A DNA stretch of 64,000 bases from NCBI GenBank assembly GCA_041662585.1, contig JBAZSG010000005.1, forward strand, positions 68,181-132,180. Direction: 5' to 3'. The notes beneath the pieces are model-generated. The model was not told where the DNA came from. It saw only the letters and a program-made list of their open reading frames with translations, and ran no database searches. Positions within the stretch are counted from its first letter, which is position 1; each line of letters opens with the position of its first letter. Both the position numbers and the translations under genes were made by a program. This stretch comes from Patescibacteria group bacterium (lineage in GTDB: Bacteria; Patescibacteriota; Patescibacteriia; UBA1558; GWA2-36-10). Of this stretch, positions 9,293 to 60,668 are shown one piece after another.

Positions 9293-12136
9293 ATGGATAT
9301 TATTAATTTAGTAATAGCTATTGTTCTATTATCAAACGCCCTGTTAGGTTTTTTTATATATAAAAATAATAGTAGGGCACTTGTTAATAGAAGTTATATT
9401 TTTGTTATTATAACCATATTATTTTGGGGAGTAGGCATGATATTTTATCGCATGGTTGATCAAGAATATGTGACACTATGGTGTAAGTTATTATACACAT
9501 TTGCAACATTTACTACTCCAACTTTTTTAATTTTTTCTTTTATATTTCCAAAAGGGAAATTACCATCAAAAAAAGAGATATTTATAATGGTGATATTTTT
9601 TATTGTTATAAATTATCTAATTTTATTTTCAGATGCTATTATTAGTAGTGCGGAAATTCCTAAACAAGGAGAAAATATTATTCATTTTGGTAATATTTAT
9701 TATTTGTATGTTCTTTATTTTTTTTCACACTTTTTTTATGCTTTTGCTAAGTTATTTTTTAAAATGCGAAAATCTAATGGTGTGCAAAAAGTACAAATTA
9801 AGTATGTTTTTTTAGGTTATTTTATAGCTACAAATTTAGCATTTGCAACAAACTTGACATTACCTTGGGCTGGAATTTTTGTGTATAATTGGGCAGGTCA
9901 AGTTTTAACTATTATCATGGTAGGTTTTACCACTTATGCTATAATAAAATACCGTTTAATGAATATACGACTTATTATCACGCGTAGTATTTTATATGCC
10001 GTATTAGTAGGTGCAGTAGCAGCTTTTTTTGCCCTATCTGTAATAGTAGTCGGTGAATTGATTGGTGGTAATACTAGAAGTAGTAAAATAATTACTTATA
10101 TTGCTACATCATTTATAGTGGTGATATTTTTGGAACCAGTCAAAAGAACTTGGGCCAAACTAACTGATAATATTTTTTATAAAGACAAGGTTGATTATCA
10201 GGAAGTATTGCGTCAAGTAGGTAATGTAGTAGCAAGGGAGATTGATTTATATAAATTATTAAAAGGCACTAGCCAATTATTAGCAGAAAAATTAAAAATC
10301 AAACAAATATCGTCTTTCGTACCAAATACTCAGGGGGAATTTCATCTTTTGGCCAGCTCAGTCAAAAAAGAGCTTGATATAGTTTTAGTCAATGATGTAG
10401 TAAATTATTTGCAAACTAATAAGAGGATTTTAATTGTTGAGGAGTTAATTAGAGATTTGGGTGGGCTAGATGAAAAATTTGAAAAGTATAAGATTTTAGA
10501 TAATTTTGTTAGTAGCGCAGAAAAGCAAAGAATAGAAATGGTAGTGCCGATAGTAGAATCAGATAATTTGACAGCTATATTGATTTTTGATGCTAAACAA
10601 TCAGGTGATCTTTATGCACAGGATGATATAAATTTTTTGGAGTTACTGAGTCCACAGATTGCCACAGCTATTGAAAAATCTAAGCTTTATGAAGAAGTAG
10701 AAGAACTTAATAAAGAATTGCAGAAAAAGGTAGAAGATAGGACCAAGAGTCTCAAAGAGGCCAATATTGCTCTAGAAGATAGAAACAAGTTTTTGACTAC
10801 TATTCAGGTCGTGACCAATAATATTACTCGTACTCTTAACTTGAAAAAGGTCAACCAAATGATTGCTGATAGTATAGCTAGTGAAGTGGGTTATATCGGC
10901 GGTATGCTTAGTTTTGTTGATTCTAGCGGTAAGTATTTAAAAGTAGGAGCTATTACCAACAATGAACAATCTAGAAAAGCTTTTCATATTTTATCTAAAG
11001 AGCCTAGAGATTATGCCACAAAAATAGAAATTGATTACAACTTAGGAGCTCAGACTTTTTTGACCGGCAAGATAAATTTTTCTGACAAGCTGTCCGATTT
11101 CCTTTGTCCGCCAGTTGATAAAAAGGAAATAGAGGAGATTCAGCAGATATTGGGTATAAAAACCATAGTGGGTATACCGGTATTTTCAGAGGCCAAAATT
11201 ATCGGCGTGATTCATTTTTATTTGGCAGTTAAGCGAGAAAAAATATCTTCTCTAGATATAGAGATTATGACAGCTTTGGCCAACCAAGTTGGTATAGTGT
11301 TTCGTAACCTAAAATTATACAATACTTTGCAGGGTGCCAATGCTGAACTTCAAGATGCCAATACCAAACTTAGAGAATTGGATAAAGCCAAATCAGAGTT
11401 TTTGTCAATTGCGTCACACCAATTGCGTACACCAATTTCAGCTATCAAAGGTTATCTTTCTATGATTATTGATGGTGATTTTGGTAAAATACCCAAAAGC
11501 ATTGATGAGGTAATTAGAAATATATTTGAAAGCTCAGCTCGTTTGGCTAGGCTTATAAATATTTTCTTAAATGTCAGTCGTATTGAGTCTGGTAGATTAA
11601 AATTGGATAAAAGACCAATTCAGATAAATGATTTGATAAAAGGGGTTATTGTTGAGCTTATCAATCAAGCCAAACAAAAAGGATTGAAACTGGAATATAA
11701 GAAAAAGAAACAAGATCCACCACTTATTTTTGCTGATGCTGATAAACTGAGAGAAGTAGTGCTTAATTTGATAGACAACGCTATCAAATATACCCCAGAA
11801 GGCTCTATTATCGTGACAGTAGATTCAGATGATAAGGAATTAAATTTTAGAGTAAAAGATACTGGTATTGGTATTAAAAAAGAAGAGGCCAAATCATTGT
11901 TTAGAAAATTTGTCAGAGGCTCTGGTGTAGCTCAAATTCATACTGGAGGCTCTGGATTGGGATTGTTTATTGCTCAAAAGATTATCAAAGAACATGATGG
12001 TATGGTATGGGCTGAGAGCGAAGGTAGTGGCAAAGGGTCTTTGTTTCAATTTACTATTCCTGTTTATAAAAAGCATGATGTGCCAGCTTATAAAGAAGAA
12101 GCAAAAGAAGGTATGTCTTCTGACTTGTCCTCATAA
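9293..12136 (+). CDS. Sensor histidine kinase (7TM N-terminal domain, GAF domains, coiled coil, HisKA, HATPase_c)
   Basis: N-terminal multi-TM region homologous to the standalone 7TM genes. H-box SHQLRTPISAIKGY. C-terminal ATPase G-boxes GIGIKKEE / GGSGLGL. Confidence 0.9.
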   Translation: MDIINLVIAIVLLSNALLGFFIYKNNSRALVNRSYIFVIITILFWGVGMIFYRMVDQEYVTLWCKLLYTFATFTTPTFLIFSFIFPKGKLPSKKEIFIMVIFFIVINYLILFSDAIISSAEIPKQGENIIHFGNIYYLYVLYFFSHFFYAFAKLFFKMRKSNGVQKVQIKYVFLGYFIATNLAFATNLTLPWAGIFVYNWAGQVLTIIMVGFTTYAIIKYRLMNIRLIITRSILYAVLVGAVAAFFALSVIVVGELIGGNTRSSKIITYIATSFIVVIFLEPVKRTWAKLTDNIFYKDKVDYQEVLRQVGNVVAREIDLYKLLKGTSQLLAEKLKIKQISSFVPNTQGEFHLLASSVKKELDIVLVNDVVNYLQTNKRILIVEELIRDLGGLDEKFEKYKILDNFVSSAEKQRIEMVVPIVESDNLTAILIFDAKQSGDLYAQDDINFLELLSPQIATAIEKSKLYEEVEELNKELQKKVEDRTKSLKEANIALEDRNKFLTTIQVVTNNITRTLNLKKVNQMIADSIASEVGYIGGMLSFVDSSGKYLKVGAITNNEQSRKAFHILSKEPRDYATKIEIDYNLGAQTFLTGKINFSDKLSDFLCPPVDKKEIEEIQQILGIKTIVGIPVFSEAKIIGVIHFYLAVKREKISSLDIEIMTALANQVGIVFRNLKLYNTLQGANAELQDANTKLRELDKAKSEFLSIASHQLRTPISAIKGYLSMIIDGDFGKIPKSIDEVIRNIFESSARLARLINIFLNVSRIESGRLKLDKRPIQINDLIKGVIVELINQAKQKGLKLEYKKKKQDPPLIFADADKLREVVLNLIDNAIKYTPEGSIIVTVDSDDKELNFRVKDTGIGIKKEEAKSLFRKFVRGSGVAQIHTGGSGLGLFIAQKIIKEHDGMVWAESEGSGKGSLFQFTIPVYKKHDVPAYKEEAKEGMSSDLSS

Positions 12137-12148
12137 AAAAATTAAAAA

Positions 12149-12190
12149 ATCGCTCACAATAGCTTTTGGCTTGGGTGAGCGATTTTTTAT
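12149..12190 (+). terminator. Rho-independent terminator after the kinase gene
   Basis: TCGCTCAC .. GTGAGCGA 8-bp stem followed by TTTTTTAT. Confidence 0.55.
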
Positions 12191-12463
12191 ATTTTCCCTA
12201 GGAAAAATTAGTGTTGCGCGATAGCCTTTATCACGCATAGCAGTAAGAGCAATCCCAGTTTGGATATGCTCCACCATATGGCAAATTTGCCAATGGTATC
12301 ATGAACATCATGTTTATTTTTCAAAAATTCCTCCTAGAATATATATGAGTGAGTTTATTTACAACGTTGTAAAAAAGAACATAATACAGATTTTCAGTAT
12401 ATCATCATATCATAAAGCAGTCAATGGTTTTTTTTAAATCACTATTTCCAAAAATCATATAAA

Positions 12464-21829: not shown

Positions 21830-21990
21830 TATTGTATTTTTACTATATAATAATCACATAATTTAAATATAAATGGCCGTAGACAGTGGGTTTCTAGCTA
21901 ATATTAGCCAAGAATTAAATATCCTACCGAGGTAGAAAAAACTAGTTTTTCAGCTGTCTGCGCTATTATACGCAGATTTTTTTAATAAAC
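21830..21990 (+). promoter_or_regulatory. Putative rplJ (L10) leader / autoregulatory 5'UTR
   Basis: ~200-nt non-coding gap before rplJ with GC-richer, structured-looking sequence (GGCCGTAGACAGTGGG .. CAGCTGTCTGCGCTATTATACGCAG). Position is analogous to known L10 leaders. Confidence 0.3.
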
Positions 21991-21996
21991 AAATAT

Positions 21997-23020: not shown

Positions 23021-25129
23021 TTAGTTGATAGCTAGAAGATATAGATGCTGATTGTTTAATAAATAAATAGCCTTTTCATCTGGATCTATAGCTAGATCTT
23101 TTAGATTATCAAATTTTTGACTAGTATACTGGTCTTTAATATTGCCTTGTTTGTCTAGTATTATTACACGATTGTTTGTTGGATCTATAATATATAGATA
23201 ATCAGAATCTCTAAATGTTTTGATGATGGCGCCATTGCCTATTGCTGGATGGGGTATTTTATACTCAAATTTTTCTAGAGAACCTTTGAGGAAATTTTTG
23301 ATTTTACCATCATTTTCTATCATATAAACACTACCATCAATAGTAAGACTAGAGCTTTGTGAGGTGTCTATTTCTTCTTTTAGCCAAGGCTGACCACCGG
23401 CAAAACCACCACCACTTTCGGGGTATTTGAATATTTGCTTATTTTGATTGTCCAATACATAAAGATTATTGCCATAAACTACTAGGTCTTTTACCGCAGT
23501 ATTGTTACTATTTTGCTTCAGATCACCAGTAATTTGTTTTTTTTCTAGATCAAAAATAATATAATTTATTTCATCACTAGCGTTTAAACTACTAAGTACG
23601 ATTTTATTTTTATCTGGCCAGTCAGTCATAGATTGTATTACTTGTCCACCAGCAAAATTGAATATTTCTTCTAATGTATCAGCTTGTATTTTGTACAATT
23701 TATTATCACCAAAAATATAAAATACACCATTTTTTTGTACAATATCTTGAGTATTTGTCAGATAAGTAGTCATATCAAATTTTTCCAAAGGAGATACTAC
23801 AATATTGATGTGGCGTATATCATTTATTTTGTAAAAAACAGTTTCAGCTAGTTTATCTATTTGTTTTTGTTGTTCAGGGGAGCTTGCTACCATAGACTTT
23901 ATCAAATCTTGAATTTCCAGCAGTATATTTTCAGCCGCTTGTTCGTCGTTGTAGATGAGTTTGGCATCTACTTCTTGGTATTTGGCATCTATAGCTATAA
24001 GAGTGTTATTAAAATCTTCATTTTTATTTTCATCAGCTTTTTCTTGAGTCAAAAATACCAGACTTTGTAAAAATACAAGGGCAATCACAAATAATCCGAT
24101 GATAGCAATTCTTTTTTTTGTACTTAGATGTTGCCACCAATGATATTTTTTATCAGTAATTTCTTTTATGCTATCGATAGTTTTTTCTTCTTTTCTTTTT
24201 CTAAAATTTGGAGAAAATAAAAATAAGAAAGAATATTTTATTTTTTGACCAATAAAAGCAAAGATAGAGGCAATGGTTTTAAAATATAAGCTTATTAGAG
24301 AAAAAATAGAACCAGTTTTTTTTATGACGCCTACATTTTTAAAGCCACTGATATCTACGACTGTTTTGGTGCGAGGCGTACTAGTATGGGATTGATTATG
24401 GTCAATAGCTATAATATCACTGATTTTCTCATCTTCTTGGTCAATAGATTTTTTGATATCTGCAGGAGCTATTTCTCTATCATTTACACCTGGTTTTTTG
24501 ATAATAATAGAATTAAAAGTAACAAAGTCAGGGACAGTTTCTAACAATTCATTTATTTTGATAGCCGCTGCCGAAGGAGAATAATGGTCGACTAGTTGTT
24601 TGGTTTTTTCTTTGGAAATATAATCAAATAAAGAATTGGTGGATATTATCAGAGCATCTCCATCGTCTAGTTCGCCACTTATAATATCAGAAAATATCTT
24701 ATTTGGATTGATATTATCATTTTTATCCATGATAGTAGTCAGCTGTTTACTGTGTATGAGTAGTCCATGGATATTACCAATCCCAGCCATAAAAACACTG
24801 TTATTGTGCATAATACCAACACTTAGGTCTATGGTATTGAGCCAGTTGTGTATTTTTAGGGAAGAGCTCATTTCTGGCAGTATTTGATTGATTTTTTGGA
24901 GTGTTTCTTCTAGCAAAATTTCAGGATTATCTTGATGGCTAGTATCAAAAAAAGTAGCAATTTCATTGATCAATTGGTCTACATAAGGCTGTTGATCTAT
25001 CTTTTGCTTTGGTACTTCAAATATAATAAATAAACGACCATGATTGGAGGAATCACTCATGTATACTTCAGAGAGCTCCCGAGCATTTAGATGGTCGTGA
25101 GTAAATATTTTATGATATTTTAAACCCAT
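23021..25129 (-). CDS. Membrane protein: N-terminal PP2C-like (possibly degenerate) phosphatase domain, single TM, extracytoplasmic beta-propeller-like repeats
   Basis: GRLFIIFEVP, AGIGNIHGLLIH and LDDGDALIISTNSLFDYI resemble PP2C motifs. TM is RIAIIGLFVIALVFLQSLVFL. The C-terminal half has repeated YxxDNxNxxI-type blades. Confidence 0.45.
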   Translation of the reverse strand: MGLKYHKIFTHDHLNARELSEVYMSDSSNHGRLFIIFEVPKQKIDQQPYVDQLINEIATFFDTSHQDNPEILLEETLQKINQILPEMSSSLKIHNWLNTIDLSVGIMHNNSVFMAGIGNIHGLLIHSKQLTTIMDKNDNINPNKIFSDIISGELDDGDALIISTNSLFDYISKEKTKQLVDHYSPSAAAIKINELLETVPDFVTFNSIIIKKPGVNDREIAPADIKKSIDQEDEKISDIIAIDHNQSHTSTPRTKTVVDISGFKNVGVIKKTGSIFSLISLYFKTIASIFAFIGQKIKYSFLFLFSPNFRKRKEEKTIDSIKEITDKKYHWWQHLSTKKRIAIIGLFVIALVFLQSLVFLTQEKADENKNEDFNNTLIAIDAKYQEVDAKLIYNDEQAAENILLEIQDLIKSMVASSPEQQKQIDKLAETVFYKINDIRHINIVVSPLEKFDMTTYLTNTQDIVQKNGVFYIFGDNKLYKIQADTLEEIFNFAGGQVIQSMTDWPDKNKIVLSSLNASDEINYIIFDLEKKQITGDLKQNSNNTAVKDLVVYGNNLYVLDNQNKQIFKYPESGGGFAGGQPWLKEEIDTSQSSSLTIDGSVYMIENDGKIKNFLKGSLEKFEYKIPHPAIGNGAIIKTFRDSDYLYIIDPTNNRVIILDKQGNIKDQYTSQKFDNLKDLAIDPDEKAIYLLNNQHLYLLAIN

Positions 25130-26149: not shown

Positions 26150-26578
26150 ATGATTTTGGTATTAAATATATTAAGTATAGAAAAAGGAACTTGGTTAGTT
26201 GTAAAAAATGACCAAATTCTTTTTTCTCATGATTTTAAAATAAATAGAGGAGAGGATAAAAGTCTTTTAGAGTTACAAAAACTATTACAGGATAACAAAT
26301 TAAAGCTAGAAAATTTTTCTGGCTTTATACTACTAGTCAAAGATGCTAGTATGACGCAAGTAAAAATATTTACTATAACGGCCAATACTTTGGCTTGGCA
26401 ATTTGATTGGCCAATATTGGCAGACTATTATTTTAAAGAAGACAATGAAAAGATCTTGATCAAAATTTTAAAAAAATTAGCTAAAATAAAAAAATTTAAA
26501 GCTGTAATTCCAAAATATAGTCGAAAGGTTGATATTTCTATTTCTAAAAAACAAAGTAAGTATAAAATAAGTAAATAA
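26150..26578 (+). CDS. TsaB/YeaZ-like protein (short)
   Basis: ILVLNILSIEKGTW..RGEDKSLLELQKLL..FSGFILLVKDASMTQVKI resembles the TsaB N-terminal ASKHA half. 142 aa, truncated relative to canonical TsaB. Confidence 0.45.
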   Translation: MILVLNILSIEKGTWLVVKNDQILFSHDFKINRGEDKSLLELQKLLQDNKLKLENFSGFILLVKDASMTQVKIFTITANTLAWQFDWPILADYYFKEDNEKILIKILKKLAKIKKFKAVIPKYSRKVDISISKKQSKYKISK

Positions 26579-26590
26579 ATAATAGTACAA

Positions 26591-26660
26591 TTTGCTCTTA
26601 GTATAAGCTATTGCTAACGACTTTCGTCTAATCGCTCTTAGCTTATACTATTCGCAAACA
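26591..26660 (+). ncRNA. Structured intergenic repeat element, copy A (family I)
   Basis: Perfect 12-bp inverted repeat TAGTATAAGCTA / TAGCTTATACTA enclosing an inner GAC-TTTC-GTC hairpin. Homologous copy at 48868 has compensatory changes in both stems. Confidence 0.55.
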
Positions 26661-26682
26661 AAGTACTTATATTAATAATAAA

Positions 26683-26716
26683 ACACTACTTGAAAGCAAG
26701 TGGTGTTTTATGTTTT
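26683..26716 (+). terminator. Rho-independent terminator
   Basis: ACACTACTTG-aaag-CAAGTGGTGT (one G-U) followed by TTTTATGTTTT. Confidence 0.65.
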
Positions 26717-26758
26717 AGTTATCCACATATTTGTGCACAACTAAGGTCTTTACTGATG

Positions 26759-26788
26759 TTGACGTTTTGGCTAACGGTGGGGTATAAT
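26759..26788 (+). promoter_or_regulatory. Sigma70-type promoter of the dcw operon (TTGACG-18-TATAAT)
   Basis: -35 TTGACG at 26759-64 and -10 TATAAT at 26783-88. Flanked by inverted TTATCCACA 9-mers (26719-27 and 26840-48). GTGGA/GTGGG repeats 10 bp apart downstream (26808, 26818). Confidence 0.6.
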
Positions 26789-26859
26789 GTATTTAAGTTC
26801 CACAAGAGTGGAGAAAAGTGGGGGATTTATAAAAATAACTGTGGATAAGTATTCTATAT

Positions 26860-27291
26860 ATGTTTATTGGCGAATATAAATATAATCTAGATGATAAGAA
26901 CCGTTTAGCTTTACCTAGTAAATTTAGGAAGCTTTTTACGTCTGGAGCAGTTATTACCAAAGGACTAGATAATTGTTTGTTTATTTATACTGATAAAGAA
27001 TGGAAAAAGTTAGCTGACAAATTGGCCAATTTGCCATTTTCTCAAGCCAAGTCTCGTGCTTTTTCTCGTATGATGCTCGCTGGAGCAATGGATGTTACTT
27101 TAGACAAACAAGGAAGAATTATTTTACCAGATTATCTCAAAGATTTTGGTGGCTTAAACAAAAAAGTAGTTGTAGCTGGTTTATACAATCGTCTTGAAGT
27201 TTGGGATGAAAAGATGTGGTCAAAATATCAACGTACATCTGAAAAAGATTCCAATGAAATTGCTGAAGGTTTAGTAGATTTAGGAATTTAA
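26860..27291 (+). CDS. mraZ: Transcriptional regulator MraZ
   Basis: MFIGEYKYNLDDKNRLALPSKFRK.. duplicated MraZ fold; first gene of the dcw cluster. Confidence 0.9.
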   Translation: MFIGEYKYNLDDKNRLALPSKFRKLFTSGAVITKGLDNCLFIYTDKEWKKLADKLANLPFSQAKSRAFSRMMLAGAMDVTLDKQGRIILPDYLKDFGGLNKKVVVAGLYNRLEVWDEKMWSKYQRTSEKDSNEIAEGLVDLGI

Positions 27292-31748: not shown

Positions 31749-31756
31749 TATTTTTA

Positions 31757-31823
31757 TTGCGAAAAATCTGCATCAGATGCGACTTTGCGTAGCAACGGAG
31801 CAGTCGATGCAGAGTATGAGCAA
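31757..31823 (+). ncRNA. Structured intergenic repeat element, copy 1 (family II)
   Basis: 8-bp stem TCTGCATC / GATGCAGA enclosing a conserved 31-nt core AGATGCGACTTTGCGTAGCAACGGAGCAGTC. Copies at 38634 (+) and 60601 (-) covary in the stem. Confidence 0.55.
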
Positions 31824-31884
31824 TTAATATAAAGTTTAAATAGCTTGACTATTAGCTAAATGTTTGTTAAAAATATGTTTTTTA

Positions 31885-34712: not shown

Positions 34713-34955
34713 TTAGTTTTTAGGAGCCAGAGCTTTGATCTGTGCCATAATGTCTGGAGGCACGGATAGTAGTATGGATTTTTCGTTAATGCGACGAGAT
34801 ACGCTTTGTCTGCCACGGTAAAGCATAAAGCCAATGTGACAGACATCTTGTGGATGGATGATCAGCAAGGCTGATTCTTGGCTGTGAGTTATCAGGCATT
34901 TGCCGTCAGCAAAAGCAATAGAATCAATATTGCTACAAGGTTTATAATCGCACAT
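34713..34955 (-). CDS. Hypothetical small protein
   Basis: 80 aa. AGGAG 8 nt upstream of the ATG. A hairpin with a U-run (34992-35025) lies just upstream of its SD. Confidence 0.5.
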   Translation of the reverse strand: MCDYKPCSNIDSIAFADGKCLITHSQESALLIIHPQDVCHIGFMLYRGRQSVSRRINEKSILLSVPPDIMAQIKALAPKN

Positions 34956-35867: not shown

Positions 35868-35892
35868 CCTCCCCTTAACAGGGGAGGTTTTT
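35868..35892 (+). terminator. Terminator of rplU
   Basis: CCTCCCC-ttaaca-GGGGAGG followed by TTTTT. Confidence 0.75.
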
Positions 35893-35899
35893 AAATTGT

Positions 35900-35926
35900 A
35901 AAAAAAAGTCCCCCTGTTAAGGGGGA
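35900..35926 (-). terminator. Terminator of recR (convergent, same palindromic hairpin motif)
   Basis: Minus strand TCCCCC-ttaaca-GGGGGA followed by a T8 run. Confidence 0.7.
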
Positions 35927-38558: not shown

Positions 38559-38633
38559 TTAGTTAAAATGTAAAATACGGAGATTAGTATATATATTTTT
38601 GTCTATATTGTCAATATAAGCAAATGTTTTATT

Positions 38634-38700
38634 TGCGAATATCCTGCATTAGATGCGAATTTGCGGAGCAACGGAGCAATCTATGTAGGATGTGAGCAAA
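38634..38700 (+). ncRNA. Structured intergenic repeat element, copy 2 (family II)
   Basis: Stem TCCTGCAT / ATGTAGGA (one G-U; T-A replaced by C-G relative to copy 1) around the conserved core AGATGCGAATTTGCGGAGCAACGGAGCAATC. Confidence 0.55.
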
Positions 38701-47776: not shown

Positions 47777-47799
47777 GCACAAAAAAGCTTAAAATATCA

Positions 47800-47833
47800 A
47801 CGGAGTGTATTAACTTGCACTCCGTTTCTGTTT
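47800..47833 (+). terminator. Rho-independent terminator
   Basis: ACGGAGTG-tattaacttg-CACTCCGT followed by TTTCTGTTT. Confidence 0.7.
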
Positions 47834-47886
47834 GTAGATTTTTTTGTTAGTTTATTGTATAATACAAGTATATTAAATCATCTAGA

Positions 47887-48867
47887 GTGAAAAATAAAAA
47901 TATAATTTCAAAATTAAAAACAGCTGATTTGCGTGGTAGAGGTGGGGCTGATTTTCCTACATACTTAAAATGGCAAATAATGGCTGATACTGTTTCGAGT
48001 CAGAAATATATAGTAGCCAATGGCAGTGAAGGAGAACCGAATGTTCTAAAAGATGGATATATTTTAAAAAATTATCCAGAATTATTGGTAGAGGGATTAA
48101 AAATTGCTTTAGACACTTTTAAAGGGTCTAGGGCTTTTATTTTTTTGCGACGTGACTACTATAAAAAATATAAAAAGAAACTAGAAAAATTAATTGGTAA
48201 AATGCCTATTACTGTTTTTAGAGAACATGGTGGTTATTTGTCAGGGGAAGAAACTGTACTTTGTGAAGAGATAGAAAAAAATTTACCAGCTCGTCCTAGA
48301 ACTAGACCGCCATTTCCAGGCCAAGCTGGTGTCTATGGATTGCCAACACTCATAAATAATGTTGAGACTTTTTATTATGTGGCTAAAATAGCTAGAGGGG
48401 AATATAAAAAAACTAGACTATATAGCATTACAGGTAAAGTACCTTATAAAGGAGTATTTGAATTACCAGTAAACATGGCTATTAAACAAATTTTAGCTGA
48501 GACTAAAAATACACCAGAGTTTGATTATTTTGTCCAAATCGGTGGAGGAGCCAGTGGTGATGTATTATTATCATCTGAAACCAACAAATTAGTAAATGGT
48601 AGTGGAGCAATTGTGGTTTATGACAAAGAGCAAACAGATCCTTGGGTATTGATGCATACTTGGATTGATTTTTTTATGCGAGAAAATTGTGACAAATGTA
48701 CTCCTTGTCGGGAAGGAACATATAGAATCCTAGAGATGATAAGAGACAGGAAATTTGATAAAAAAATACTTGAAGATTTATTTTTCGTTTTAGAAAATAC
48801 TAGTTATTGTGCATTAGGTAGATCTATACCACTTCCATTTAGATCAGCTATTAAGAAGTTGTTATAA
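47887..48867 (+). CDS. NuoF/HoxF-like NADH-binding FMN flavoprotein subunit (short form)
   Basis: RGRGGADFPTYLKW (NuoF GRGGAGFPTGxKW), SEGEP motif, C-terminal CxxCxxC cluster site. GTG start. Lacks the long N-terminal extension of canonical NuoF. Confidence 0.75.
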   Translation: MKNKNIISKLKTADLRGRGGADFPTYLKWQIMADTVSSQKYIVANGSEGEPNVLKDGYILKNYPELLVEGLKIALDTFKGSRAFIFLRRDYYKKYKKKLEKLIGKMPITVFREHGGYLSGEETVLCEEIEKNLPARPRTRPPFPGQAGVYGLPTLINNVETFYYVAKIARGEYKKTRLYSITGKVPYKGVFELPVNMAIKQILAETKNTPEFDYFVQIGGGASGDVLLSSETNKLVNGSGAIVVYDKEQTDPWVLMHTWIDFFMRENCDKCTPCREGTYRILEMIRDRKFDKKILEDLFFVLENTSYCALGRSIPLPFRSAIKKLL

Positions 48868-48938
48868 TAATTGCTCCTAGTCTAAGCTATCGTTAACGGC
48901 CTTCGCCTAATCACTCTTAGCTTAGACTACTCGCAATA
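48868..48938 (+). ncRNA. Structured intergenic repeat element, copy B (family I)
   Basis: Perfect 12-bp inverted repeat TAGTCTAAGCTA / TAGCTTAGACTA and inner GGC-CTTC-GCC hairpin. Both stems differ from copy A by paired compensatory substitutions. Confidence 0.55.
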
Positions 48939-48953
48939 AAAATATAATATAAA

Positions 48954-50678
48954 ATGACCAAGAAAGTTAATATCTATATCAACAACAAGCAATATACTGC
49001 CAATCAAGGACAAAGTGTTTTGGATGTGGCCAAAGCAAATAATATTGAAATCACTACTTTGTGTCATCATCCAGATATAAAAATTCAAGGCTCTTGTAGG
49101 TTGTGTTTGGTTGAAATAAAAGGGAAAAAAGGATTGTTTACAGCTTGTACCACCAAAGTAGAAGATGACATGAGAGTAGTGACTGATTCCAAAGATATAG
49201 CCAGAGCCAAGCAGATAAATTTAGAATTAATATTTGCTGAGCATTGTGAAGAATGTAATGATTGTATCTATAATCAAAACTGTACTATCAAAGAATATGC
49301 CAAAAAATTTAATGTGAAAATTACAAAATATAGTGATAGAAAAAAGGGTTATCCTGTACACAAATTTGGTCCATCTTTGCAATTTGATACTTCCAAATGT
49401 ATTGATTGTGGTTTGTGTGTAGATATTTGTAAAAAAGAAGGAGTAGATTTTTTGGAGTTTAAGAAAAATAGAAAATTTTATGAAGTATGCCCATCTGCCA
49501 AAAAAGATAAGGACTGTATTTATTGTGGTCAGTGTTTGACCCATTGTCCAGTCGGAGCCTTTGAGGGAGTAGGAGAATTTGAAGATATTGATAAATATAT
49601 AAAGGCCAAAGGAAAAACAGTGGTTTTTCAGTTTGCTCCATCTATACGTTCTACCATTGGTGAAGAATTTGGGATGCCTATCGGGTCTGTGGTTACTGGC
49701 AAGCTAGTCGCCGCTATAAAAGCTTTGGGAATAGAACATGTTTTTGATGTTTCTGTTGGAGCGGATATTACTACCATAGAAGAAGCTAGCGAACTTATAG
49801 ACAGAATAAAAAAAGACACAGCACTACCAATGTTTACATCATGTTGTCCAGCTTGGGTAAAATATGTAGAGTTTTTTCGTCCCGACATGATACCAAATCT
49901 TACTACTGTCAGGTCTCCACAAGTTATCATGGGAGGACTTATCAAAACATATTGGGCCAAAGAAATGAAAATAAATCCCAAAGATATTATAGTAGTTGGT
50001 ATTATGCCTTGTGTAGCCAAAAAATATGAGATAGAGAGATCTCAAAATAAAATAAATGGTATGAAGGCTGTTGATCAAGTAATGACCACTAGAGAGTTGG
50101 CTCATTTGCTTCGTAAGAAAAAAATAGATTTAAAAACCATAAAGCCAGAAGTAGCTCGGTCACCACTTTTAAAACCTAGTGGGGCTGGAGTAATCTATGG
50201 TGCCTCTGGTGGCGTGATGGAATCAGCTCTGAGAGCAGCTTATAAGATGATGACTGCCAAGTCTATGCCAAAATTGCAATTGGAAGAAGTCAGAGGTATA
50301 CAAGGATTTAAAAAAGCTAAAATAAAAGTAGCCAATAAGACTATCAAAGTAGGAGTAGTAAATGGCATTGCCAATGCCAAGAAAATATTGGCCGAATTGG
50401 AAAAAGATCCACATGCTTATGATTATGTAGAAGTGATGGCTTGTTTTGGTGGGTGTATTGGAGGAGGAGGACAACCAGTACCAGTAAATGATGAGATAAG
50501 AAAAAAACGTTCAGCTGGTTTATATAATGTAGATAATAAACAAACAATTCGTAGTGCAGAAGAAAATCCAATTATCAAAAAATTGTATAAAGAATTTTTT
50601 AATAATCATCAAAACACACATAGTGTTTGTCATACTAGTTTTATAAAAAAGAAAAAAGAAGTTTATCCATCCAAATAA
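48954..50678 (+). CDS. [FeFe]-hydrogenase catalytic subunit with N-terminal 2Fe-2S and 4Fe-4S ferredoxin domains
   Basis: H-cluster motifs TSCCPAW (L1), MPCVAKK (L2), EVMACFGGCIGGGGQP (L3). Also 2Fe-2S CHHPD..C..C and two CxxCxxCxxxCP. Confidence 0.9.
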   Translation: MTKKVNIYINNKQYTANQGQSVLDVAKANNIEITTLCHHPDIKIQGSCRLCLVEIKGKKGLFTACTTKVEDDMRVVTDSKDIARAKQINLELIFAEHCEECNDCIYNQNCTIKEYAKKFNVKITKYSDRKKGYPVHKFGPSLQFDTSKCIDCGLCVDICKKEGVDFLEFKKNRKFYEVCPSAKKDKDCIYCGQCLTHCPVGAFEGVGEFEDIDKYIKAKGKTVVFQFAPSIRSTIGEEFGMPIGSVVTGKLVAAIKALGIEHVFDVSVGADITTIEEASELIDRIKKDTALPMFTSCCPAWVKYVEFFRPDMIPNLTTVRSPQVIMGGLIKTYWAKEMKINPKDIIVVGIMPCVAKKYEIERSQNKINGMKAVDQVMTTRELAHLLRKKKIDLKTIKPEVARSPLLKPSGAGVIYGASGGVMESALRAAYKMMTAKSMPKLQLEEVRGIQGFKKAKIKVANKTIKVGVVNGIANAKKILAELEKDPHAYDYVEVMACFGGCIGGGGQPVPVNDEIRKKRSAGLYNVDNKQTIRSAEENPIIKKLYKEFFNNHQNTHSVCHTSFIKKKKEVYPSK

Positions 50679-60593: not shown

Positions 60594-60600
60594 AATATTA

Positions 60601-60668
60601 TTACTCGTATCTGCACCGATTGCTCCGTTGCTACGCAAAGTCGCATCTGGCGCAGAATACTCGTAATT
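60601..60668 (-). ncRNA. Structured intergenic repeat element, copy 3 (family II, inverted orientation)
   Basis: Reverse complement reads TCTGCGCC-AGATGCGACTTTGCGTAGCAACGGAGCAATC-GGTGCAGA; stem contains a compensatory C-G relative to copy 1. Confidence 0.55.

What the first reader, a model, noticed from the sequence alone, without database searches (positions are those of the whole stretch)
26591..26660. Family I structured repeat: two copies (26.6 kb and 48.9 kb) with compensatory changes in two independent stems
Copy A (26591-26660) and copy B (48868-48938) are ~80% identical 70-nt elements. Each has a perfect 12-bp outer inverted repeat (A: TAGTATAAGCTA/TAGCTTATACTA; B: TAGTCTAAGCTA/TAGCTTAGACTA). 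Each also has an inner 3-bp hairpin (A: GAC-TTTC-GTC; B: GGC-CTTC-GCC). Every sequence difference inside the stems is matched by the complementary change on the partner arm, which is the signature of selection on base pairing rather than on a protein half-site. Both copies lie in co-directional intergenic gaps: after the tsaB-like gene before the dcw promoter, and between the NuoF-like and [FeFe]-hydrogenase genes.
Basis: seen in the sequence. Interest (0 to 1): 0.7.

Follow-up and report, generated by a model that had tools for sequence, protein, structure and literature searches.

The report
Dispersed hairpin repeat in a Patescibacteria genome
The two 68-base look-alike hairpins are real and belong to a small family of inserted, hairpin-forming intergenic repeats in an ultra-small (CPR) bacterium. 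The repeats sit just after stop codons, keep their base pairing through matched changes, and resemble the REP and MITE repeats of other bacteria rather than a one-off regulator.

Summary
Copy A (26591-26658) and copy B (48870-48937) are 82% identical. Eight of their 12 differences form four compensated base pairs, and no pair is broken (simulated P about 2e-4).

They are not an isolated pair. Covariance models link them to three more copies in the window (31756-31824, 38632-38700, 60600-60667), one just past its end, and four in related Patescibacteria. All share the termini WTTGCTC...TCGCAAW and a rod of four stems. Across the 10 copies, 15 of 24 pairs changed on both sides.

The elements are insertions. 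Both family I sites are empty in the closest relatives; nuoF and hydA overlap there. Other sites are variably filled, hold unrelated hairpin repeats, or hold the same copy inverted.

Copies at the same site in different genomes are 83-94% identical, while neighbouring third codon positions are about 60% identical. The host therefore appears to maintain them.

Best reading: a lineage-restricted REP/MITE-like element, transcribed in the 3' UTR or between cistrons, most likely acting as an RNA hairpin. Action as RNA rather than single-stranded DNA is unproven. No Rfam family, transposase or consistent target duplication was found. The 'tsaB-like' label is unsupported.

The parts
26591..26658 (+). 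Family I copy A, the 68-nt rod hairpin. P1 26591-26595/26654-26658; P2 26599-26610/26639-26650; P3 26613-26614/26634-26635; P4 26619-26621/26626-26628 with loop TTTC.
   Evidence: It starts 12 nt after the stop codon of ORF 26150-26578 and lies upstream of the terminator. The site is empty in L029, L030 and L018.
48870..48937 (+). Family I copy B. P1 48870-48874/48933-48937; P2 48878-48889/48918-48929; P3 48892-48893/48913-48914; P4 48898-48900/48905-48907 with loop CTTC.
   Evidence: It is part of an insertion of about 87 nt between nuoF-like and hydA. These two genes overlap (TAATG or ATGA) in L024, L025, L026 and L027.
31756..31824 (-). Family II copy II-a, in the murF-to-tRNA spacer. It is in reverse orientation relative to the flanking genes.
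   Evidence: R1 20.9 bits and R2 96.5 bits. L006 carries a copy at the same site in the opposite orientation; the site is empty in L008 and L018.
38632..38700 (-). Family II copy II-c, 12 nt downstream of argS (minus strand) and upstream of a tRNA gene.
   Evidence: R2 89.2 bits; sequence. L008 has an unrelated hairpin repeat at this site.
60600..60667 (+). Family II copy II-b, between scpB and the pseudouridine synthase gene.
   Evidence: R2 86.2 bits; sequence. The two genes overlap in L028, so that site is empty there.
26678..26711 (+). Canonical intrinsic terminator (15-pair stem plus T run) downstream of copy A. It places copy A inside the 3' UTR of the upstream operon.
   Evidence: The terminator is conserved in L008, L018, L029 and L030.
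26759..26788 (+). mraZ/dcw promoter-like site, TTGACG-18-TATAAT. It is context only, not part of the element.
   Evidence: 11 of 12 matches. mraZ at 26860-27291 is confirmed by TIGR00242.
26150..26578 (+). Upstream ORF of copy A, 142 aa. It is conserved in relatives but has no family assignment, so it is not shown to be tsaB.
47887..48867 (+). NuoF-like gene (Complex1_51K plus NADH_4Fe-4S domains). Its stop codon lies 2 nt before copy B.
48954..50678 (+). [FeFe] hydrogenase group A gene. Its start codon lies 16 nt after copy B.

Best explanation
Copies A and B are two members of a lineage-restricted family of 68-69-nt interspersed hairpin elements in a Komeilibacteria-related Patescibacteria genome.

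Shown:
- Each element is a rod of four stems: P1 WUUGC/GCAAW, a variable 11-12-bp P2, a short P3 and an apical P4. The stems are separated by conserved, asymmetric internal loops.
- The elements entered intergenic DNA as insertions of about 85-95 bp. They always lie 2-24 nt after a stop codon and nearer to that stop than to the next start codon.
- They were then inherited vertically and kept under purifying selection, with stem changes fixed only as compensated pairs.

Inferred:
- They are transcribed as part of the upstream gene's mRNA. Copy A lies before the operon's real terminator, and copy B lies inside the nuoF-hydA operon.
- They act there as a stable hairpin, either a barrier to 3'-to-5' decay or a processing and 'punctuation' site, as REP elements and chloroplast 3' inverted repeats do. 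Such a role largely tolerates inversion of the element.
- They were spread by an unidentified enzyme that recognises the conserved termini and apical core, probably on a folded single strand.
For: - Reality and pairing.
- Family membership: the two models hit each other's family. R2, built only from family II, scores I-B at 39.3 bits and I-A at 34.1 bits. R1, built only from family I, scores L007 at 30.4, L006 at 24.1 and II-a at 20.9 bits.
- Copy number: 6 copies in 82.4 kb of this genome.
- Covariation over 10 copies: 15 of 24 pairs changed on both sides, 36 cells, 0 of 500 shuffles as high, and slid controls far lower.
- Insertion polymorphism: the I-B site is an overlapping stop/start in four relatives. 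The I-A site is empty in L029, L030 and L018. The II-a site is empty in L008 and L018. The II-b site is an overlapping gene pair in L028. L008 has a copy between ybaB and recR where the window has only a 24-nt gap.
- Purifying selection: the TIM-FBA copy is 61-65/69 identical among three genomes whose TIM third codon positions are 59-64% identical. The murF-tRNA copy is 57/69 identical against 59% for murF third positions, and its stem differences are compensated.
- Transcript context: a terminator lies downstream of copy A, and all flanking genes are co-directional.
- Position: all 10 copies are nearer the upstream stop codon (coordinates).
Against: - There are no expression data, so action as RNA is inferred only.
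- In 8 of 10 copies the strand in the mRNA is the one that folds less well. The opposite strand is 3-10 kcal/mol more stable in all 9 copies folded. That strand carries tandem G.A motifs and GNA or GAAA apical loops.
- Stem mismatches are A.C more often than G.U on the sense strand, 8 against 4. This does not favour selection on the sense RNA.
- A plain stability hairpin does not explain the near-invariant asymmetric loop sequences.
- No transposase or recombinase was seen in 82 kb of this genome or in about 200 kb of relatives' loci (Pfam lists).
- Target-site duplications are inconsistent: two candidates with p about 0.03-0.07 among the eight copies whose flanks were read.
- Only 10 copies were available, and some sit at the same site in different genomes, so they are not independent.
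Confidence: 0.55

Rival explanations
1. A purely selfish DNA element with no host function. It would be a relic of a transposon that moves as a single-stranded DNA hairpin, in the style of REP/RAYT or IS200/IS605. Its arms would be kept complementary by replication template switching within quasi-palindromes rather than by selection.
For: - The sites show insertion polymorphism, and unrelated hairpin families occupy the same sites in relatives.
- There is no consistent target duplication, as expected for HUH-type elements.
- Almost all stem variation is Watson-Crick to Watson-Crick, with few G.U intermediates.
- Template-switch correction of imperfect palindromes is an established mechanism (PMC7202029).
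Against: - Copies at the same site in different genomes are 83-94% identical where neutral sites are near saturation. This requires selection at the host level.
- Template switching would erase the asymmetric internal loops, yet these are the best conserved parts.
- No Y1/HUH transposase was seen in any locus examined.
Confidence: 0.2
2. A sequence-specific structured RNA or single-stranded DNA motif that is bound by a dedicated protein. The reading strand would be the purine-rich one, with GC-GA...GA-GC tandem G.A modules and a GNA or GNRA apical loop. The hairpin would be a scaffold for the conserved loops rather than a generic stabiliser.
For: - The asymmetric loops and the central 29 nt are nearly invariant, while P2 varies freely with compensation.
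- The opposite strand is more stable in every copy folded.
- Eight A.C mismatches on the model strand would be G.U pairs on that opposite strand.
Against: - That strand is antisense to the flanking genes in 8 of 10 copies, and no promoter for it is evident.
- Family I and family II differ in the apical loop sequences.
- No candidate binding protein was identified.
- The element tolerates inversion in place.
Confidence: 0.15
3. An invertible DNA switch, a miniature inverton. Flipping would change the downstream or upstream expression state.
For: - The TIM-FBA copy has an interior of 51 nt that is identical in L007 and L028 but inverted in place.
- The murF-tRNA copy is in opposite orientations in the window and in L006, with a shared outer flank.
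Against: - All strains of one species carry the same orientation: L003 against the window, L023 against L022, and L008, L009, L014 and L016.
- No recombinase gene lies nearby.
- 69 bp is very short for recombinase synapsis.
- Rare hairpin-mediated inversions of the chloroplast type would explain the differences between species (PMC9887819, PMC12928735).
Confidence: 0.05
4. A double-stranded DNA operator: a palindromic binding site for a dimeric regulator.
For: The termini are palindromic and the motif TTGC(T/G)(C/A) occurs four times.
Against: - The half-sites differ between copies but are always matched within a copy. One protein cannot read many different half-sites.
- The copies sit after stop codons of unrelated genes, not at promoters.
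Confidence: 0.03

Closest known systems
REP/BIME elements of Enterobacteria and Pseudomonas (and REPIN doublets mobilised by RAYT transposases)
   Same: - They are short interspersed extragenic palindromes placed after stop codons or between cistrons.
- They are transcribed as part of mRNAs.
- Their stems are maintained by compensatory change.
- Occupancy varies between relatives.
- Density is comparable: about 1 per 14 kb here, against roughly 1 per 8 kb in E. coli (the latter from my own knowledge).
   Different: - This element is 68-69 nt with four stems and conserved asymmetric loops, not a 20-40-nt simple palindrome.
- There is no GTAG-type head.
- No RAYT gene was seen in the DNA available.
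- There is no sequence similarity.
- The host is a Patescibacteria lineage. A full-text search found no paper linking RAYT to Patescibacteria.
Bacterial MITEs such as Correia (Neisseria), RUP/BOX (Streptococcus) and ERIC
   Same: - They are non-coding insertions of about 70-150 bp with inverted-repeat ends.
- They show insertion polymorphism.
- They fold into long hairpins in transcripts and can separate or modulate neighbouring genes.
   Different: - There is no consistent target-site duplication.
- No parent insertion sequence with matching ends was found.
- The best conserved parts are the termini together with the apical core, and copies at the same site in different genomes are under purifying selection.
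Chloroplast 3' inverted-repeat hairpins with recurrent small inversions
   Same: - They are hairpins just downstream of coding regions that act as mRNA 3'-end stability and processing elements rather than terminators.
- They flip in place between related genomes (PMC9887819, PMC12928735; their function is from my own knowledge).
   Different: - Chloroplast hairpins are not a dispersed homologous family and are not insertions.
- There, usually only the loop flips. Here the whole 51-nt interior, including the P2 arms, is inverted.
Integron attC sites and IS200/IS605 or PATE end hairpins (structures read on folded single-stranded DNA)
   Same: The structure is conserved while the sequence varies with compensation. 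Short sequence motifs at the base of the hairpin are conserved. Such elements can be read on one strand only.
   Different: - The attC core sites RYYYAAC/GTTRRRY are absent by inspection.
- No integrase or TnpA gene lies nearby.
- The copies are solitary, not arranged in cassettes or at the ends of insertion sequences.
TIGR stem-loop arrays of CPR bacteria and phages (PMC12045711)
   Same: They occur in CPR genomes and have variable but consistently palindromic stems around conserved short motifs.
   Different: TIGR units are tandem arrays next to a Tas gene, and their loops hold box C/D motifs and 8-12-nt spacers. Here the copies are solitary, the loops are 3-4 nt long, and no Tas gene or box C/D motif is present.

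Membership tests
REP / REPIN (RAYT-associated) | Short imperfect palindrome (about 20-40 nt) with a conserved 5' tetranucleotide head (GTAG-like) | tested here: not met
   The element is 68-69 nt with four stems and termini WTTGCTC/TCGCAAW. No GTAG head is present.
REP / REPIN (RAYT-associated) | A RAYT (Y1 transposase, PF01797) gene in the genome, typically flanked by REPs | tested here: inconclusive
   No such gene appears among the genes called in 82 kb of this genome or in the relatives' loci (Pfam lists). The other 620 kb or so of the contig could not be read.
REP / REPIN (RAYT-associated) | Many extragenic copies, mostly after stop codons or between cistrons | tested here: met
   There are 6 copies in 82.4 kb. 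All are intergenic and lie 2-24 nt after a stop codon.
MITE | Terminal inverted repeats | tested here: met
   P1 plus P2 form inverted termini. The arms are 20-27 nt long and 78-85% complementary.
MITE | Target-site duplication of fixed length flanking each copy | tested here: inconclusive
   Only I-B (TATAATA, p about 0.07) and II-a (CTATTTAA, p about 0.03) have candidate duplications, and these are not flush with the element. Six other copies have none. The flanks of L007 and L028 could not be read in that script.
MITE | Presence/absence polymorphism at sites shared with relatives | tested here: met
   Empty sites were found for I-A, I-B, II-a and II-b, and the converse case was found in L008.
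MITE | An autonomous parent element with the same ends | tested here: not met
   None was found in the DNA available. The superfamily pattern gave 0 true hits in 185,579 GTDB species genomes and 0 hits in viral contigs.
Any Rfam 15 RNA family | Covariance-model score at or near the gathering threshold | tested here: not met
   No hit over either family at the gathering threshold. At E up to 10, only chance-level partial overlaps (E > 4, far below the gathering scores) touch the elements.
Intrinsic (Rho-independent) terminator | GC-rich hairpin immediately followed by a U tract | tested here: not met
   No T run follows either copy. The scan calls a separate terminator at 26678-26711 downstream of copy A and none at copy B.
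Inverton (phase-variable invertible DNA) | Both orientations present within one population, with a cognate recombinase | tested here: not met
   Orientation differs only between species. All strain-level contigs agree, and no recombinase gene is in the loci. Read-level data were not available.
TIGR array | Tandem units with box C/D motifs and dual spacers, next to a Tas gene | tested here: not met
   The copies are solitary and 5-12 kb apart, their loops are 3-4 nt long, and no Tas gene is present.
Structured RNA under selection on the transcribed strand | G.U pairs tolerated on the transcribed strand, with A.C avoided | tested here: inconclusive
   Relative to the sense strand there are 4 G.U and 8 A.C cells. 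Relative to the model strand there are 4 G.U and 8 A.C cells. Neither split is significant (with orientations).

The most novel reading that the evidence does not exclude
The elements are not junk repeats. They would be a CPR-specific, host-maintained class of structured nucleic-acid signal placed after genes. The signal would work for gene-end punctuation, processing or ribosome and RNA-polymerase handling, would be installed by insertion, and would still work after being flipped in place.
Probability: 0.15. Interest if true: 0.7.

Novelty: new variant of a known kind. Interest (0 to 1): 0.45.

Why it matters
Patescibacteria (CPR) genomes are highly streamlined, and I know of no described REP- or MITE-like repeat in them. 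The full-text searches found none.

A family of about 70-nt hairpins that is inserted after stop codons and then conserved far better than the neighbouring genes would show two things. These minimal genomes still acquire non-coding structured elements, and they keep them. That would give an entry point to how CPR bacteria define mRNA ends and uncouple operon genes.

There are practical consequences too. The repeats break short-read assemblies: L023 starts in the centre of a copy. They could also serve as strain markers.

For the scan itself, the result reclassifies a 'two-copy structured RNA candidate' as one subfamily of an interspersed repeat.

Tried and rejected
- Rfam at gathering threshold over the whole window, and at E up to 10 around copies A and II-a: nothing relevant.
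- Exact-pattern scans of GTDB species genomes. The family I core gave 0 hits. The superfamily pattern gave 2 hits (L004, L005) that neither model confirmed, so they are chance matches.
- JGI metagenomes: only 2 true relatives, L006 and L007.
- Viral contigs, scanned twice: 0 hits.
- The R1 match at 34864-34934(-) was rejected. Its fold is weak (z = -1.9) and it lies inside an 80-aa ORF bounded by terminators.
- Gaps in the gene calls of L020, relative to this genome, looked like possible insertions. They proved to be gene-calling differences only.
- Target-site duplications were tested against shuffled flanks and were not consistent.
- Terminator function was rejected because no U tract follows the hairpins.
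- The 'tsaB-like' label was rejected.
- A TIGR-array relation was considered after a literature hit and rejected on architecture.
- Hairpin-ribozyme, attC and box C/D resemblances were checked by eye against the consensus motifs. None fits. This is inspection only, not a formal test.
- Similarity between the P2 arms and the adjacent coding ends was suggestive for I-A and I-B but absent in the other copies, so it was dropped.
- Both orientations within one species were looked for among strain contigs. None was found.
- Walking further along the 702-kb contig was not possible under the look-up rules and caps.

Full report
**Observation.** Trimmed to the paired ends, they are 26591-26658 (copy A) and 48870-48937 (copy B). 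Each is 68 nt, and 56 of 68 positions are identical.

Each copy folds into a rod. From the outside in, it has:
- a 5-bp outer stem, WUUGC/GCAAW;
- a 3x3 internal loop;
- a 2-bp stem;
- the 3-bp apical hairpin.

Free energies are -22.5 and -24.3 kcal/mol, with z-scores of -5.3 and -5.9, and none of 200 shuffles folds as well.

One further change is symmetric across the internal loop (U.U to C.C), and two are at unpaired positions. In a simulation of 12 random substitutions, all 22 pairs survive with P = 1.8e-4, and four or more compensated pairs arise with P = 4e-6.

**Context and organism.** The window is part of a 702-kb metagenomic contig (ENA ERZ27249449, k141_305749). A close strain is in NCBI assembly GCA_041667165.1. 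Homologues of MurF and HydA place the organism in Patescibacteria, near Candidatus Komeilibacteria. GC content is about 32%, and GC skew is positive across the window.

Copy A starts 12 nt after the stop codon of a 142-aa ORF that has no Pfam or NCBIfam match, so it is not shown to be tsaB. Copy A lies upstream of a canonical terminator at 26678-26711 and of the mraZ promoter. Copy B lies 2 nt after the stop codon of the NuoF-like gene and 16 nt before the [FeFe]-hydrogenase start codon.

**Not a pair but a family.** A covariance model built from the two copies (R1) was run over the window without filters. It found three more distant relatives: 31756-31824(-), 60600-60667(+) and 38632-38700(-). 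I call these family II.

A pattern of the shared positions (TTGCTC-N14/15-TGCT-N16-TCGC-N16-TCGCAA) matches 3 of the 5 window copies, with 0 matches expected by chance. In 185,579 GTDB species genomes it found only two chance hits that the model rejects. In viral contigs it found nothing. In JGI metagenomes it found two true relatives, L006 and L007.

A second model built only from family II (R2) recovers copy B at 39.3 bits and copy A at 34.1 bits. R1 in turn recovers family II members. The two families are therefore related.

Further copies are:
- L022:11258-11326, in the same genome just past the window's end;
- L008:13974-14040, in a Komeilibacteria relative;
- L028:20909-20977.

That makes 6 copies in 82.4 kb of this genome. 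No Rfam family matches.

**Base pairing is maintained.** I scored a common four-stem structure on the 10-copy alignment.
- 89.9% of cells form standard pairs, against 24-41% when the partners are slid by 1-3 columns.
- 15 of 24 pairs carry changes on both sides (36 cells).
- None of 500 shuffles reaches these values.

P2 is the variable, covarying stem. The termini and the central 29 nt of family II (CTGCTCCGTTGCTNCGCAAAGTCGCATCT) are nearly invariant. G.U intermediates are rare.

**The elements are insertions.** The evidence, site by site:
- *I-B site.* At the nuoF-hydA junction, the closest relatives (HydA 90% and 84% identical) have overlapping stop and start codons (TAATG or ATGA). The window has about 87 extra nucleotides that contain copy B. 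L028 has an unrelated GC-rich hairpin element there.
- *I-A site.* The site is empty in L029 (78% identical ORF), L030 and L018. L008 carries an unrelated 85-nt rod hairpin there (dG -33.5, z = -6.2).
- *II-a site.* Empty in L008 and L018, filled in L006.
- *II-b site.* An overlapping gene pair in L028.
- *Converse case.* L008 has a copy between ybaB and recR, where the window has only a 24-nt gap.

Direct repeats flanking the copies are not consistent. Two candidates with p about 0.03-0.07 were seen among the eight copies whose flanks were read.

**But they are conserved once in place.** The TIM-FBA copy is present in three genomes. It is 61-65/69 identical, while the adjacent TIM gene is 68-72% identical in protein and 59-64% identical at third codon positions. 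The murF-tRNA copy is 57/69 identical between the window and L006, against 59% for murF third positions. Its P2 differences are four compensated transitions.

A decaying selfish insert would not behave like this. Selection at the level of the host is implied.

**Inversion in place.** The interior 51 nt of the TIM-FBA copy is identical in L007 and L028 but inverted. The inverted part includes the arm that carries the A.A mismatch. The murF-tRNA copy is also in opposite orientations in the window and in L006, and the two share an outer flank. That second case is weaker, because P2 sequences are partly shared between different sites.

Strains of one species all agree in orientation. These therefore look like rare evolutionary flips, comparable with the hairpin-associated small inversions of chloroplast DNA (PMC9887819, PMC12928735), rather than an active switch.

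**Which strand acts?** This is unresolved.
- In 8 of 10 copies, the strand that reads WTTGCTC...TCGCAAW is the sense strand of the flanking genes.
- The opposite strand folds 3-10 kcal/mol better in all nine copies folded.
- On that opposite strand the conserved loops read GC-GA...GA-GC, which is a tandem G.A motif. The apical loops are GNA or GAAA, and L007 and L028 carry GCGAAGC.
- Stem mismatches are A.C eight times and G.U four times on the model strand. Counted relative to the sense strand, the split is also 8 to 4. Neither is significant.

**Mechanism.** I take as shown that this is an interspersed, insertion-derived hairpin family with selected base pairing, conserved in place, and always sited just after a stop codon. 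All 10 copies are closer to the upstream stop codon (2-24 nt) than to the downstream start (11-201 nt).

I infer that it is co-transcribed with the upstream gene. Its most likely role is as an RNA hairpin that protects or defines the mRNA 3' end, or that separates cistrons. This is how REP elements and chloroplast 3' inverted repeats work, and such a role tolerates inversion.

Template-switch correction of quasi-palindromes (PMC7202029) could contribute to the compensated changes. It cannot explain the conserved asymmetric loops.

The rivals are a purely selfish single-stranded-DNA element, a protein-binding motif read on the purine-rich strand, an invertible switch, and a double-stranded DNA operator. 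They are weighed in the rival-explanations section.

**Comparison and novelty.** The element works like REP/BIME elements and like MITEs, but I cannot file it as a member of either. It has no GTAG head. No RAYT gene, parent insertion sequence or fixed target duplication was found in the DNA I could read. Only 82 kb of this genome could be read, so the RAYT test is inconclusive. Full-text searches found no report of such repeats in Patescibacteria.

I rate it a new variant of a known kind, of moderate interest.

**Limits.**
- Only 10 copies were available, and some sit at the same site in different genomes.
- About 620 kb of the contig could not be read.
- There are no expression or read-level data.
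- E-values from the short calibration of R1 and R2 are rough.

Noticed in passing
window 26719-26727 and 26840-26848: Two perfect DnaA-box 9-mers bracket the mraZ promoter: TTATCCACA and its reverse complement TGTGGATAA. One or both recur at the same place in L008, L018, L029 and L030. This could be DnaA control of the dcw operon, or an origin-proximal feature.
   Followed up: partly
L008:6144-6228, L008:16155-16216, L028:~9947-10000: Related genomes have unrelated families of rod-like hairpin repeats at the very spots where this genome has copies I-A, II-c and I-B. The two L008 elements are very stable (dG -33.5 and -32.4, z about -6). The fragment of the L028 element that was folded is weak (dG -15.9, z = -1.6). 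The L008:16155-16216 element is flanked by the direct repeat GTCAAT. The space just after a stop codon seems to be a shared niche for several hairpin families.
   Followed up: partly
L023:1-23 (equivalent to window 60622-60644): A Logan contig starts exactly at the centre of copy II-b. The break is most simply explained by the 28-nt core shared among family II copies. The repeats fragment short-read assemblies.
   Followed up: no
window 21859-21992: The ribosomal protein L10 leader (RF00557, 55.2 bits) lies upstream of rplJ/rplL. This is an ordinary feature.
   Followed up: no
window 23021-25129 (-): A 702-aa ORF has no significant Pfam domain. It is conserved in size and position in L008, L018, L029 and L030. 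It may be a lineage-specific protein of unknown function.
   Followed up: no
L022:13306-13563: An 85-aa stand-alone GIY-YIG nuclease-domain ORF lies about 2 kb downstream of copy II-d. No link to the repeats was tested.
   Followed up: no
window 12137-12195, 35871-35924, 958-994, 47781-47844: Ordinary hairpins with A/T-rich flanks are present: an A run before the stem and a T run after it. They look like bidirectional intrinsic terminators. The genome therefore seems to have conventional terminators besides the repeats.
   Followed up: no
window 34864-34934 (-): A weak model-R1 match (18.7 bits) has a similar outline. It lies inside an 80-aa ORF and folds poorly (z = -1.9). I judged it a chance match.
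   Followed up: yes
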